Positions 15,595 through 18,297 of a DNA stretch of 46,137 nt are shown here, piece by piece. This stretch comes from a virus (Duplodnaviria > Heunggongvirae > Uroviricota > Caudoviricetes). Position 1 is the first letter of the stretch. Each line of letters opens with the position of its first letter. The stretch is from the IMG/VR virus record IMGVR_UViG_644736364_000003. One strand, written 5' to 3'. The translations under genes were made by a program, and so were the position numbers. The notes under the pieces are model-generated. The model had not been told where the DNA came from. It was given only the letters and a program-made list of their open reading frames with translations, and did no database searches.

Positions 15595-15670
15595 GGCCCT
15601 TTAGCTCAGTGGTGAGAGCGAGCGATTCATAATCGCCAGGTCGCTGGTTCAAATCCAGCAAGGGCCACCA
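15595..15670 (+). tRNA. ileZ: tRNA with CAU anticodon (Ile2 lysidine-type, or Met)
   Basis: Cloverleaf folds by hand: acceptor GGCCCTT/AAGGGCC, D-arm GCTC..GAGC, anticodon loop TTCATAA, T-loop GGTTCAAATCC, 3' CCA; resembles ileX. Confidence 0.8.
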
Positions 15671-15677
15671 TCACATA

Positions 15678-15754
15678 CCGCCATTAGCTCATCAGGATAG
15701 AGCGCCAGCCTTCGAAGCTGGTTGCGCGGGGTTCGAGTCCTCGATGGCGGTCCA
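15678..15754 (+). tRNA. tRNA-Arg (anticodon UCG)
   Basis: Acceptor CCGCCAT/ATGGCGG, anticodon stem CCAGC/GCTGG with loop CTTCGAA, T-loop GGTTCGAGTCC, CCA end. Confidence 0.8.
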
Positions 15755-15767
15755 TTATCTGTACCCT

Positions 15768-15844
15768 GCGTTATTAGCTCAGCCGGACAGAGCAATTGCC
15801 TTCTAAGCAATCGGTCACTGGTTCGAATCCAGTACAACGCGCCA
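15768..15844 (+). tRNA. tRNA-Arg (anticodon UCU)
   Basis: Acceptor GCGTTAT/ACAACGC (one A-C mismatch), anticodon stem ATTGC/GCAAT loop CTTCTAA, T-loop GGTTCGAATCC, CCA end. Confidence 0.8.
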
Positions 15845-15854
15845 GACTTATTTT

Positions 15855-15886
15855 TCCCGGCTCGCTTTTGCGGGCTTTTTTTTAAA
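15855..15886 (+). terminator. Possible terminator after tRNA cluster
   Basis: Short GC hairpin (CTCGC-tttt-GCGGG) followed by CTTTTTTTTT. Confidence 0.4.
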
Positions 15887-16335
15887 TGTCTCACAATTCA
15901 GACGGTTGACAGTTGTCTGTTTTGCGGGGAGTTTGTTAAAAGAAACTGGCATGGTGAATCCCCCTGTGCGGAGGGGCAATCAGCAACTGGTGTTTTGTCA
16001 CCGACCCTTATCCTTTCTGTGCGGGTTCAGGTGCTGATACTGAACTCACCGGGAGGCACCCGGCATCATGTGCATGATGATACAGATACGCGGCTTTAGC
16101 CCCTCTCCGGAGGGGCTTTCTTGTGGGCAAAAAAAGCCCGAGTGGGTTCGGGCAACAGCATGAGATATACATTTTTATAATCGAATGGATTTTAACCAGA
16201 ATTCATAAGGCTGCGCAACTGCGCGGTCTTTTTCGAATTGCGGGCTGTCGTCTCTCTTCTGCCATTGTCCTGTAACTTCCGGACTTCAGCCCGCTCCTTA
16301 TTTTACTCACAATATTATCCCGGCCGGGAGGATTC

Positions 16336-18297
16336 ATGGCATTTAAACACTATGACGTGGTCAGGGCGGCATCGCCGTCAGACCTTGCGAAACGACTGAC
16401 ACAAAAACTGAAGGAGGGGTGGCAGCCATTTGGCAGTCCGGTGGCCATCACGCCTTATACCCTGATGCAGGCCATTGCGGCGGAAGGTGATGTCACCACA
16501 CCTGTGGTGGTGAAGCCGTCGGATGGAGAAGGCGCAGTTATCAGCAACACCAGCAACCCGGAGTATTACTTTGTTGTTGCCCTGGCCGGGCAGTCAAACG
16601 GTATGGCGTATGGTGAAGGGCTTCCGCTGCCGGAGACATATGACCGTCCGGACCCGCGTATTAAACAGCTGGCGCGTCGCAGCACTGTCACGCCGGGTGG
16701 TGCGTCCTGTAACTACAATGACATTATTCCTGCGGACCACTGCCTGCATGATGTTCAGGATTTGAGTAAGTTTTCACACCCGAAAGCCAGCGCAGCTCAG
16801 TATGGATGCGTGGGGCAGGGATTACATATCGCGAAGAAATTGTTGCCGTTTATTCCGGCGAATGCCGGTATTCTTCTGGTTCCGTGCTGCCGTGGTGGTT
16901 CTGCATTTTTGGCGGGCGATGAAGGTACCTTCAGCGAATCCACCGGCGCAAGCGAGACCTCGGCACGCTGGGGTGTAGATAAGCCACTGTACAAGGACCT
17001 GCTTACCCGTACTCAGGCCGCACTGAAGGCCAACCCTAAAAATATTCTGCTTGCAGTGGTCTGGATGCAGGGCGAGTTTGATTTGAAACAGGGTGCATAC
17101 GCCACTCAGCCGGGGCTGTTTGATTCCATGGTGGAAAAATATCGTTCTGACCTGTCGGAATTCGGAGGTCAGTGTCTCGGGGGCTCTCCGTCATCGGTTC
17201 CCTGGATTTGTGGCGACACGACCTACTACTGGAAGCAGACTTATTCTTCGCAATACGATGCGGTGTATGGTGCATACAAGACGAAATCCGCAAAAAAAAT
17301 CTTCTTTGTGCCGTTTATGACGGATGAAAACGGGCGAAATGTGGGTACCAACGAGCCGTCAGAAGATCCGGATGTTGCGGATATTGGGTATTACGGAGCC
17401 GGTGGTCGAACGGACGCCAAAACCTGGACGACGGCTGACCGTAAAACGCATTTTGGATCATGGGCACGTCGTGGGATTATTTCCGACCGTCTGGCAACGG
17501 CGATTCTTGTGCATGCCGGGAGAACCGCTGAATTCATTACCGGAAAACAGCCTGATACGGTGAAGCCCACCGGACCTTCCGGTGAAGGTACGGAGAGAGA
17601 GCCGGAAGGTCCGGTCAGTAACCGAACCCTGATGAGTCTGCTGGCGTCCGGCGAAGACCTGGCATCACAGGGCTGGCGCTATTATCACAAACCGGCGAGC
17701 GGAGACAATGTTAACAAAAACATTGCTGAAGCGGTGGTCAGTGATGCGGGGGCTACGGGAGGTAAGGCCCTGCAACTGAATAAACCGGAAAACCACATCT
17801 GGTTTCTGGAGCATGATGCAGCCGGGCAGGGGGCAGAGTTGCTGAAGAAAGGAGGACGTGTGAGCGTACGGTTTAAGTTGCCGGGTTCACTGGTGCCGAA
17901 TCAGTTTGCCCTGGGCATTTACTGGCAGTTGTCGTCCCTGCCGGAGGGAGTGACGCTGGCAGAGGAAGGCAACGACATGCTGATGTCCTTCTTCCTGCAG
18001 ACGGATGCGACGAACCTGAACGCGATGCACCACAAGAAGCCGAATGCGAAGCTGGATACGTTCGGGGTCTTTGATAACGGATGGCACACACTGGCTTTTG
18101 AGTTTGCCGGAAACAACAGCATTCAGGTGACGCCGGTACTGGATGAGAAACGGGGGACGCCGTTCACACTGGTGAAATCTCCGGCATCAGGGGCGGCGGA
18201 CAAACTGCAACTGACAGGCATATCAAAGGCGGCGACATATACGCTGCTGATTGACAGTGTGAAGGTGGAAGTGAACAACGCGGATGCCGCGGCATGA
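16336..18297 (+). CDS. nanS: NanS-p-type sialate O-acetylesterase (SGNH/DUF303-like)
   Basis: 653 aa; GGGAGG RBS; catalytic block VVALAGQSNGMAYGEG; same position as nanS-p downstream of the toxin slot in Stx phages. Confidence 0.8.
   Translation: MAFKHYDVVRAASPSDLAKRLTQKLKEGWQPFGSPVAITPYTLMQAIAAEGDVTTPVVVKPSDGEGAVISNTSNPEYYFVVALAGQSNGMAYGEGLPLPETYDRPDPRIKQLARRSTVTPGGASCNYNDIIPADHCLHDVQDLSKFSHPKASAAQYGCVGQGLHIAKKLLPFIPANAGILLVPCCRGGSAFLAGDEGTFSESTGASETSARWGVDKPLYKDLLTRTQAALKANPKNILLAVVWMQGEFDLKQGAYATQPGLFDSMVEKYRSDLSEFGGQCLGGSPSSVPWICGDTTYYWKQTYSSQYDAVYGAYKTKSAKKIFFVPFMTDENGRNVGTNEPSEDPDVADIGYYGAGGRTDAKTWTTADRKTHFGSWARRGIISDRLATAILVHAGRTAEFITGKQPDTVKPTGPSGEGTEREPEGPVSNRTLMSLLASGEDLASQGWRYYHKPASGDNVNKNIAEAVVSDAGATGGKALQLNKPENHIWFLEHDAAGQGAELLKKGGRVSVRFKLPGSLVPNQFALGIYWQLSSLPEGVTLAEEGNDMLMSFFLQTDATNLNAMHHKKPNAKLDTFGVFDNGWHTLAFEFAGNNSIQVTPVLDEKRGTPFTLVKSPASGAADKLQLTGISKAATYTLLIDSVKVEVNNADAAA

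What the first reader, a model, noticed from the sequence alone, without database searches (positions are those of the whole stretch)
15595..18297. Stx-phage architecture (Q - tRNA-Ile/Arg/Arg - toxin slot - nanS-p) with an empty toxin slot
The tRNA trio (anticodons CAU, UCG, UCU) followed by a NanS-p-type esterase is the hallmark arrangement flanking stxAB in Shiga-toxin-converting phages. Here the 490-bp interval between the tRNAs and nanS-p (15845..16335) has no toxin ORFs. It instead contains several GC-rich hairpins, including two copies of a CGGAGGGGC-containing stem and an A-run-preceded hairpin GCCCGAGTGGGTTCGGGC that would terminate on the minus strand. This looks like an stx-negative relative or precursor of Stx phages, and the structured spacer may be a regulatory RNA or a deletion scar.
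Basis: partly seen in the sequence, partly recalled or inferred. Interest (0 to 1): 0.55.

Follow-up and report, generated by a model that had tools for sequence, protein, structure and literature searches.

The report
Stx-less prophage with known sRNA pair
This is the ordinary late-gene control region of a toxin-free relative of Shiga-toxin phages, and the "empty" spacer actually holds two already described small regulatory RNA genes that Shiga-toxin phages carry as well.

Summary
ARAGORN and Rfam confirm three tRNAs (CAU, UCG, UCU) that are 74-75 of 76-77 nt identical to ileZ/argN/argO of phage 933W. A NanS-p-type esterase follows, there are no stx genes, and the hairpins sit where described.

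The 490-bp interval is not the toxin slot and not a scar. It is the conserved intergenic region that lies between stxB and nanS-p in Stx phages too. It holds two known genes:
- a full-length STnc100-family sRNA (15920-16128, +; 131.7 bits);

The real cargo point is about 4 nt (15883-15886), right after the argO terminator. In three Stx2 phage types homology stops at 15882. In the two types that keep the intact downstream region it resumes at 15887, with a 1,335-bp stx2 cassette in between. Other prophages carry TerB/DUF3927 genes or a second STnc100 copy there.

The layout was described by Tree et al. 2014 and is common: tRNAs, spacer and esterase start without stx occur in 1030 of 5426 complete E. 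coli genomes. The window is identical to the argU-site prophage of ExPEC strain MS7163.

The anti-sRNA here is a distinct, recurrent allele never linked to stx in my sample. Its target is unknown.

The parts
13169..13555 (+). Late-gene antiterminator Q
   Evidence: Pfam Phage_antitermQ, 160.8 bits, full length; annotated 'antiterminator Q family protein' in the identical MS7163 record.
13604..15566 (+). Low-GC (41.5%) cargo block between Q and the tRNAs: a 214-aa ORF, a 65-aa ORF and a 235-aa YdeO/GadX-like AraC-family regulator (14859-15566)
   Evidence: Pfam HTH_AraC/HTH_18; best NCBIfam match YdeO, 106 bits, below its cut-off; GC content. Window 14379-15882, which includes the 65-aa ORF, the AraC-like gene and the tRNAs, is 92% identical to the stretch that precedes stx2k in phiSTEC1575-Stx2k.
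15556..15584 (+). Promoter-like site just upstream of the tRNA trio (TTGATT-17-TATTAT), at the position of 'pT' in 933W
   Evidence: Consensus scan only. 933W annotates a putative tRNA promoter pT at the equivalent place. Inference.
15595..15670 (+). tRNA with anticodon CAU, ileZ-type (probably tRNA-Ile2 reading AUA after lysidine modification)
   Evidence: ARAGORN; Rfam 72 bits; 75/76 identical to 933W ileZ. RefSeq calls near-identical copies either Met or Ile.
15678..15754 (+). tRNA-Arg (UCG), argN-type
   Evidence: 74/77 identical to 933W argN.
15768..15844 (+). tRNA-Arg (UCU), argO-type
   Evidence: 75/77 identical to 933W argO.
15859..15883 (+). Intrinsic terminator after argO (GGCTCGCTTTTGCGGGCT + T8), shared with Stx phages
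   Evidence: Terminator scan. Aligned with 933W, Stx2_112808 and Stx2k phages up to window 15882. 933W annotates a terminator at this place.
15883..15886 (.). Cargo ('moron') insertion point, empty here; this is where the stx2 cassette sits in Stx2 phages
   Evidence: Left homology ends at 15882 in three Stx2 phage types. Right homology resumes at 15887 in 933W and Stx2_112808, where a 1,335-bp cassette lies in between. The survey of the distance from argO to STnc100 gives discrete classes.
15920..16128 (+). STnc100-family sRNA gene (Rfam limits). Closing helix 15949-15956 with 16065-16072; hairpins 15960-15977 and two more; terminator 16098-16117 + U-rich tail.
   Evidence: Rfam RF02076, 131.7 bits against a gathering score of 47, model 1-206 of 206. 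Homologues sit downstream of stx2B in 933W (207.7 bits) and Stx2_112808 (155.1 bits). RNAalifold on 13 variants: 33 pairs, 6 with compensatory changes.
16129..16183 (-). Anti-sRNA of the AsxR/AgvB family, about 53-55 nt: 5'-CGAUUAUAAAAAUGUAUAUCUCAUGCUGUUGCCCGAACCCACUCGGGCUUUUUUU.
   Evidence: Rfam AsxR RF02703, 63.0 bits (gathering score 63), full length; AgvB RF02702, 43.4 bits (gathering score 56). Six differences from AsxR. Recurrent allele.
16189..16218 (-). Promoter of the anti-sRNA: TTGCGC, 17-nt spacer, TGG-TTAAAA(T), with +1 at 16183
   Evidence: Read from the sequence. CTGGTTAAAAT is conserved in all four allele groups across about 120 loci. The start site of homologues was mapped by 5' RACE in Tree et al. 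2014. Use of this promoter here is inferred.
16184..16335 (+). Conserved leader of nanS-p, including a weak hairpin with a T-run at 16209-16233
   Evidence: Window 16042-16335, which contains this leader, is about 85% identical to 933W. The leader is aligned with 933W, Stx2_112808 and PhiR12_1. Function not tested.
16336..18297 (+). NanS-p-type sialate O-acetylesterase
   Evidence: Pfam DUF1737 + SASA + DUF6645; 60% identity to 933W L0105; RefSeq name 'SASA family carbohydrate esterase'.

Best explanation
The region is the late-gene control and cargo region of an stx-negative lambdoid prophage, the argU/DLP12-site prophage of ExPEC strain MS7163. The gene order is: Q antiterminator; a three-ORF cargo block with a YdeO-like AraC regulator; the ileZ-argN-argO tRNA trio with its own promoter-like site and terminator; an unoccupied cargo insertion point of about 4 nt; a convergent pair of small-RNA genes (an STnc100-family sRNA on the + strand and an AsxR/AgvB-family anti-sRNA on the - strand); then the nanS-p esterase and the lysis genes. 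Likely mechanism: in the lysogen, the tRNAs and the two sRNAs are made from their own promoters and end at their own terminators. The anti-sRNA binds Hfq and uses its variable 5' end to bind and neutralise a host sRNA, as shown for its relatives AsxR (target FnrS) and AgvB (target GcvB). After induction, Q-modified RNA polymerase reads through all these terminators to express nanS-p and the lysis genes. Shown here: the identity and position of every element, the exact junction relative to Stx phages, structural covariation in the STnc100 RNA, and the recurrence and stx-independence of this anti-sRNA allele. Inferred: expression, Hfq binding, the sponge mechanism and read-through. The target of this allele is unknown.
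For: tRNAs. Rfam STnc100 131.7 bits and AsxR 63.0 bits in the spacer. The same two RNAs lie downstream of stx2B in 933W, and STnc100 lies there in Stx2_112808. Junction mapping at 15882/15887 in 933W and Stx2_112808, with the left junction also at 15882 in phiSTEC1575-Stx2k. Covariation in STnc100: 6 of 33 pairs. Conserved anti-sRNA promoter and four recurrent 5' alleles in about 120 IMG/VR loci. Identical sequence and annotation in the MS7163 chromosome next to argU and intD. Pfam for Q, AraC-type regulator, NanS-p, holin and lysozyme. [quoted passage not shown] STnc100 downstream of stx2 (PMC12370729). PasD/STnc100 upstream of the sialate esterase (bioRxiv 10.64898/2026.05.13.724894).
Against: No expression data exist for this strain. 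The AsxR score sits exactly on the Rfam threshold and the AgvB score is below its threshold. Predicted pairing of this allele with FnrS (-5.0 kcal/mol; 24% of shuffles as good) or GcvB (-12.3; 62%) is no better than chance, so a sponge function is inferred from family membership only. The 5' end of the STnc100 RNA is not known. No STnc100 target has been validated; the proposed stxB pairing in PMC12370729 is hypothetical, and stxB is absent here. The prophage may be defective, because the terminase large subunit is annotated as frameshifted; late read-through may therefore be irrelevant in this strain.
Confidence: 0.88

Rival explanations
1. One reading: the 490-bp spacer is the vacated toxin slot, a scar left when stxAB was deleted from an Stx phage, or the site before stx arrived, and its hairpins are an uncharacterised regulatory RNA.
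For: The flanking tRNAs and nanS-p are those that flank stx. The left half of the window is closest to Stx2 phages. The bioRxiv preprint 10.64898/2026.05.13.724894 raises repeated stx loss as one possible reason why esterase-linked sRNAs are rarely next to stx on chromosomes.
Against: In 933W and Stx2_112808 the whole spacer from 15887 onward is also present downstream of stxB, so it is not what replaces stx. The cassette maps to about 4 nt. No remnant of stx flanks is present. The same junction sequence (TTTTTAAAT..CTCACAATTCAG) is shared with the stx-less, tRNA-less phage PhiR12_1. The hairpins belong to two curated RNA families. The direction of change (loss or never gained) cannot be decided from these data.
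Confidence: 0.07
2. The hairpins act only in cis. They are transcription terminators and insulators that keep the tRNA and early transcripts from running into nanS-p and the lysis genes in the lysogen, and any short RNAs made are by-products without trans-acting function.
For: Three terminator-like sites lie in the spacer (15859-15876 +, 16098-16117 +, 16153-16136 -). Q-dependent late operons need terminators to be read through (933W annotation). No target is known for STnc100, and none is predicted for this anti-sRNA allele.
Against: A dedicated, strongly conserved promoter drives the minus-strand RNA, away from the late operon. Its 5' end is hypervariable between alleles while its 3' end is conserved, which is the pattern of a targeting RNA. 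Homologues are among the most abundant Hfq-bound RNAs, and two have validated trans targets (PMC4104026). The STnc100 RNA keeps a multi-helix fold by compensatory changes, beyond what a terminator needs. PasD relatives have RIL-seq partners (PMC8550237).
Confidence: 0.05

Closest known systems
Convergent sRNA pair at the PR' 'moron' site of lambdoid prophages of E. coli O157 (Tree et al. 2014, Mol Cell; EcOnc02/AsxR + EcOnc27 in Sp5; EcOnc01/AgvB in Sp10 and Sp17; EcOnc03 in Sp9)
   Same: Same position (between the cargo CDS site and the conserved esterase ORF), same convergent orientation, same anti-sRNA build (about 53 nt, conserved 3' 37-42 nt with terminator, variable 5' end) and same promoter motif.
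   Different: No cargo CDS lies immediately upstream. The 5' end (CGAUUAUAAAAAUGUA) differs from AsxR at 4 of its first 16 nt and lacks AgvB's GcvB-mimic CACAACA. The host is an ExPEC strain rather than EHEC. The target is unknown.
Late region of Stx2-converting phages (933W: Q, ileZ-argN-argO, stx2AB, AsxR, L0105/nanS-p, S-R)
   Same: tRNA trio 96-99% identical; same terminator after argO; STnc100 + anti-sRNA + nanS-p leader (about 85% identical from 16042 on); NanS-p 60% identical; P21-type holin and lysozyme.
   Different: The 1,335-bp stx2 cassette is absent. Q is a different type (128 aa, next to DUF968) and is separated from the tRNAs by an AraC-regulator block. The structural genes are lambda/phage 21-like, not 933W-like.
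Escherichia phage phiSTEC1575-Stx2k (OQ243220)
   Same: Closest 'filled' counterpart by identity: 94.6% over 52% of the left half of the window. Same small-ORF, AraC-like regulator and tRNA block (92%), ending at the same junction, window 15882.
   Different: It carries stx2k at the junction. Its STnc100 is internally truncated (64.9 bits). It has no anti-sRNA hit and no nanS-p; an IraM-like gene sits there instead.
STnc100 (Rfam RF02076) and PasD sRNAs of EPEC
   Same: Full-length STnc100 match. Location directly upstream of the sialate esterase, as described for PasD. Conserved fold with variable unpaired segments.
   Different: I could not obtain PasD sequences, so I cannot say whether this copy is nearer PasD or STnc100 proper. 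The function of either is unresolved.

Membership tests
Stx-converting phage (toxin-flanking architecture) | stxA and stxB genes between the argO terminator and the STnc100/anti-sRNA pair | tested here: not met
   tblastn with Stx2A/B finds nothing. The argO-to-STnc100 distance is 58 nt, against about 1,388 nt in Stx2 phages.
Stx-converting phage (toxin-flanking architecture) | ileZ-argN-argO tRNA trio downstream of Q | tested here: met
   Q is present but lies 2 kb upstream.
Stx-converting phage (toxin-flanking architecture) | nanS-p esterase followed by the S-R lysis cassette downstream | tested here: met
   Pfam; 60% identity to 933W L0105.
STnc100 sRNA (RF02076) | Full-length covariance-model match above the curated gathering score | tested here: met
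   131.7 bits against 47; model positions 1-206 of 206.
STnc100 sRNA (RF02076) | Fold maintained by compensatory substitutions among homologues | tested here: met
   RNAalifold on 13 distinct variants: 33 pairs, 6 with double-sided changes, in the closing helix, the central hairpin and the terminator. The sequences are related, so this is supportive rather than a strict statistical test.
STnc100 sRNA (RF02076) | Expressed as a discrete, Hfq-associated transcript | not testable with these tools
   Only shown for homologues in other strains (PMC4104026, PMC12370729).
AsxR/AgvB anti-sRNA family | Match to Rfam AsxR (RF02703) or AgvB (RF02702) at the gathering score | tested here: met
   AsxR 63.0 bits against a gathering score of 63, so exactly at threshold. 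AgvB 43.4 against 56, not met.
AsxR/AgvB anti-sRNA family | 51-60 nt, conserved 3' region of about 42 nt with an intrinsic terminator, variable 5' end of 14-18 nt, own promoter, convergent with a partner sRNA at the moron site | tested here: met
   positions relative to STnc100; family description in PMC4104026.
AsxR proper (anti-FnrS, stx2-linked) | Located 3' of and antisense to stx2AB | tested here: not met
   No stx is present. In the IMG/VR sample the AsxR allele is stx2-linked in 8 of 8 loci and the window allele in 0 of 19.
AsxR proper (anti-FnrS, stx2-linked) | 5' end complementary to the FnrS terminator loop | tested here: inconclusive
   Window allele -5.0 kcal/mol (24% of shuffles as good). 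The validated AsxR contact scores only -7.7 (14%), so the test lacks power. The first 7 nt are identical to AsxR; U8 is changed to A.
AgvB (anti-GcvB) | 5' region carrying the GcvB R1 target mimic (CACAACA) and pairing with the GcvB seed | tested here: not met
   The motif is absent. Pairing is -12.3 kcal/mol (62% of shuffles as good), against -26.0 (1.6%) for the AgvB control.
NanS-p prophage sialate O-acetylesterase | SASA catalytic domain flanked by the prophage-specific N-terminal (DUF1737) and C-terminal (DUF6645) domains | tested here: met
   domain description in PMC10462455. Enzyme activity is not testable here.

The most novel reading that the evidence does not exclude
The anti-sRNA in this window is a distinct allele of the AsxR/AgvB family. 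Its 5' end is CGAUUAUAAAAAUGUA. It occurs near full length in about 174 of 5426 complete E. coli genomes and was never next to stx in my sample. It may neutralise a host sRNA other than FnrS or GcvB, which would give ExPEC-type strains their own prophage-borne rewiring of a core regulatory circuit. Likewise, the two hypervariable unpaired segments of the STnc100 partner may be exchangeable targeting seeds.
Probability: 0.3. Interest if true: 0.4.

Novelty: already known. Interest (0 to 1): 0.15.

Why it matters
It matters mainly as a correction. A tRNA trio followed by nanS-p with no toxin between them is not evidence of a lost or awaited toxin. It is the commonest state of a widespread prophage module. 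The intergenic region is also not empty, because it carries two sRNA genes that genome annotation leaves unmarked: RefSeq lists no feature for the anti-sRNA and none between argO and the esterase. The exact cargo point (after the argO terminator, before STnc100) and the allele-to-cargo linkage (AsxR allele with stx2; this allele without) are useful for annotating prophages and for choosing which anti-sRNA alleles to test experimentally.

Tried and rejected
1. Deletion scar. I looked for stx-flank remnants in the empty junctions. The 34 extra nt of the longer empty type score 10 against the stx2 cassette, with a shuffle mean of 9.7. A resemblance I thought I saw by eye to the stxA start region was therefore chance.

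2. Target of the anti-sRNA allele. RNAduplex against GcvB gave nothing (62% of shuffles as good), although the AgvB control worked. Against FnrS the test was uninformative, because even the validated AsxR-FnrS contact is not significant in this test. I did not scan all E. coli sRNAs because no sRNA collection was available.

3. Pairing of the anti-sRNA with its own convergent partner: -14.2 kcal/mol, with 30% of shuffles as good. Rejected.

4. Whether the + strand RNA is PasD rather than STnc100, and whether the candidate RNA after nanS-p is PasA/PasC. The papers give no sequences in their main text, so this is unresolved.

5. Weak Rfam hits in the spacer (Leu_leader, istR, OmrA-B and others, 14-23 bits) are far below threshold and are treated as chance.

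6. The ORF 15722-16099 (125 aa, TTG start) overlaps two tRNA genes and was dismissed as spurious.

7. Whole-molecule folding z-scores are unremarkable (-1.3 for STnc100, -2.2 for the anti-sRNA). Support for structure comes from the covariance model and covariation instead.
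Full report
**1.

ARAGORN finds exactly three tRNA genes in the 46-kb window:

| tRNA | Coordinates | Rfam tRNA score | Identity to 933W |
|---|---|---|---|
| CAU | 15595-15670 | 72 bits | 75/76 to ileZ |
| UCG | 15678-15754 | 56 bits | 74/77 to argN |
| UCU | 15768-15844 | 64 bits | 75/77 to argO |

The 933W record annotates ileZ as tRNA-Ile reading AUA. RefSeq labels near-identical copies in other genomes either Met or Ile.

The ORF 16336-18297 has the DUF1737 + SASA + DUF6645 domain set. 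It is 60% identical over its full length to L0105/NanS-p of 933W. No Stx-like coding sequence is present.

CGGAGGGGC occurs twice, at 15969 and 16108, each inside a hairpin. GCCCGAGTGGGTTCGGGC (16136-16153), preceded by A7, scores as a minus-strand terminator.

One detail of the title is inaccurate. Q (13169-13555) is 2 kb upstream. A low-GC block of three ORFs that includes an AraC-family regulator lies between it and the tRNAs.

**2. What the spacer is**

An Rfam scan finds two genes in the spacer:
- A full-length STnc100 sRNA at 15920-16128 (+), scoring 131.7 bits against a gathering score of 47.
- An AsxR-type anti-sRNA at 16131-16183 (-), scoring 63.0 bits against a gathering score of 63. 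AgvB scores 43.4 against 56 at the same place.

The same two RNAs lie downstream of stx2B in 933W (207.7 and 88.1 bits). STnc100 also lies there in an Stx2d phage and in the stx-less phage PhiR12_1.

This is the arrangement Tree et al. 2014 (PMC4104026) described for O157 prophages Sp3, 4, 5, 9, 10, 11, 15 and 17: convergent sRNA genes between the "moron" coding sequence and a conserved downstream ORF. Their anti-sRNAs are 51-60 nt long, with a conserved 3' part and a variable 5' end. STnc100 downstream of stx2 is also reported in PMC12370729. A 2026 preprint (10.64898/2026.05.13.724894) relates STnc100 to PasD, which lies directly upstream of the sialate esterase.

**3. Where the toxin slot really is**

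Pairwise alignments give the following picture:
- Homology between the window and three Stx2 phage types (933W, Stx2_112808, phiSTEC1575-Stx2k) runs from argO through its terminator and stops at window 15882.
- In 933W and Stx2_112808 homology resumes at 15887 (TGTCTCACAATTCAG...), 41 nt after the stx2B stop codon.
- The 1,335-bp stx2 cassette in these two phages therefore corresponds to about 4 nt of the window. The other ~450 nt of the "slot" are present in Stx phages too.
- In phiSTEC1575-Stx2k the region downstream of stx2k is rearranged. The STnc100 gene is internally truncated and nanS-p is missing.

I surveyed IMG/VR prophage loci that carry both argO and the STnc100 start motif. The distance between the two falls into discrete classes:

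| Distance from argO to STnc100 | Loci | Content |
|---|---|---|
| 58-59 nt | 8 | empty, the window type |
| 87-92 nt | 20 | empty, longer junction |
| 525 nt | 1 | a second tandem STnc100 module |
| 1,294 nt | 2 | TerB-domain protein + DUF3927 peptide + extra STnc100 |
| 1,388-1,389 nt | 12 | stx2 |
| 1,406 nt | 2 | two further small ORFs plus the TerB gene and a DUF3927-like reading frame |

So this is a general cargo point that is empty more often than not. I found no stx remnant in the empty junctions. The junction sequence is shared with the stx-less, tRNA-less PhiR12_1. Nothing indicates a scar, but the data cannot say whether this lineage ever carried stx.

**4. How common it is, and what the element is**

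The 751-nt stretch from the tRNAs to the esterase start is 100% identical to the chromosome of E. coli MS7163, a urine isolate. It is found at ≥80% coverage in 1030 of 5426 complete E. coli genomes.

In MS7163 the window is a prophage next to tRNA-Arg and intD, at the folD-ybcJ side, which is the DLP12/argU site. Its terminase large subunit is annotated as frameshifted.

The left half of the window is most similar to Stx2-converting phages: 61% coverage at 91.6% for Stx2a_WGPS2, and 52% at 94.6% for phiSTEC1575-Stx2k. The structural half is lambda/phage 21-like. "An stx-negative relative of Stx phages" is thus fair for the regulatory half of a mosaic prophage.

**5. The RNAs in more detail**

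Thirteen distinct STnc100 variants give a consensus fold with a long-range closing helix (GCAUGGUG/CACCAUGC), three internal hairpins and a terminator. There are 33 pairs, and 6 of them are kept through double-sided changes. Two hypervariable segments fall in unpaired regions. An invariant TTTGTTAAAA lies just upstream of the closing helix. It resembles the anti-sRNA's promoter motif and may be an extended -10 element; this is inference only.

For the anti-sRNA, about 120 IMG/VR loci fall into four recurrent alleles behind an invariant CTGGTTAAAAT promoter motif:

| Allele | Approximate loci | Linked to stx (loci with enough flank) |
|---|---|---|
| AgvB type | 47 | 0 of 37 |
| AsxR type | 15 | 8 of 8 (stx2) |
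| CGAUAAAAAUGACAAUGCAAG type | 32 | 3 of 24 (stx1) |
| Window type (CGAUUAUAAAAAUGUA) | 26 | 0 of 19 |

The window allele occurs near full length in 174 of 5426 complete genomes. It differs from AsxR at 6 of 53 positions, 4 of them in the first 16 nt.

**6. Mechanism**

The relatives act as Hfq-dependent sponges. AsxR pairs with the FnrS terminator loop and destabilises FnrS, which derepresses chuS. AgvB mimics a GcvB target and blocks the GcvB seed (PMC4104026).

I tested both targets, using FnrS and GcvB sequences verified as 100% matches in more than 5390 genomes:
- The AgvB-GcvB control is recovered: -26.0 kcal/mol on the R1 seed, with 1.6% of shuffles as good.
- The window allele shows nothing with GcvB: -12.3 kcal/mol, 62% of shuffles as good.
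- For FnrS the test has no power. The validated AsxR contact gives -7.7 kcal/mol (14%) and the window allele -5.0 (24%).
- The anti-sRNA does not pair with its own partner sRNA better than chance.

The most likely mechanism is therefore a sponge of a host sRNA, by family analogy. The target is unknown, and FnrS is neither supported nor excluded.

**7. Verdict**

The finding is real and well observed, but it is ordinary. It is a known, widespread prophage module in its commonest, cargo-free state, and its spacer holds two curated sRNA families.
- Relative of Stx phages: yes.
- Regulatory RNA in the spacer: yes, but already known.
- The 490-bp interval as the toxin slot: no.
- Deletion scar: no evidence.

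The only open point of some interest is the target of this particular anti-sRNA allele.

Noticed in passing
window 18298-18410 (- strand): Candidate ~85-nt sRNA gene convergent with the end of nanS-p. It has a near-consensus promoter (TTGACA-N17-TTTAAA) and an intrinsic terminator (CCGCCAGC...GCTGGCGG + U7) directly after the nanS-p stop codon. Promoter and terminator are conserved and the body is variable in 30 related loci. There is no Rfam match. Its position between esterase and holin is the one described for PasA/PasC, but I could not compare sequences.
   Followed up: partly
window 6645-6833 and 7511-7696 (+ strand): Two tandem modules, each an isrK-family RNA followed by a C4 antisense RNA (58.9-80.7 bits). 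Each lies at the start of a Rha-family regulator gene, and the second gene is annotated as partial in the identical MS7163 record. It looks like a duplicated P1/P7-type C4-antirepressor immunity module.
   Followed up: no
window 13604-15566 (+ strand): Low-GC (41.5%) three-ORF block between Q and the tRNAs, including a 235-aa AraC-family regulator most similar to the acid-resistance regulators YdeO and GadX (106 and 85 bits, below their cut-offs). The 65-aa ORF, the AraC-like gene and the tRNAs (window 14379-15882) are 92% identical to the stretch directly upstream of stx2k in phiSTEC1575-Stx2k. This may be a prophage regulator of host genes.
   Followed up: partly
L053, L066, L022, L097, L041 (IMG/VR loci), at the point equivalent to window 15883-15886: The same insertion point that holds stx2 in Stx phages holds other cargo in stx-less prophages: a TerB-domain protein (PF05099) with a DUF3927 membrane peptide, two further small ORFs in L022/L097, or a second tandem STnc100 module.
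   Followed up: partly
window about 23700-25630 (terminase large subunit; L004 28119-30045): The terminase large subunit is annotated as frameshifted in the identical MS7163 record, so this prophage may be unable to package DNA.
   Followed up: no
window 16209-16233 (+ strand): A short hairpin (GCGC-AACT-GCGC) followed by TCTTTTT in the nanS-p leader. It is conserved in 933W, Stx2_112808 and PhiR12_1 and overlaps the -35 region of the minus-strand anti-sRNA promoter. Only weak chance-level Rfam hits fall here. Its function is unknown.
   Followed up: no
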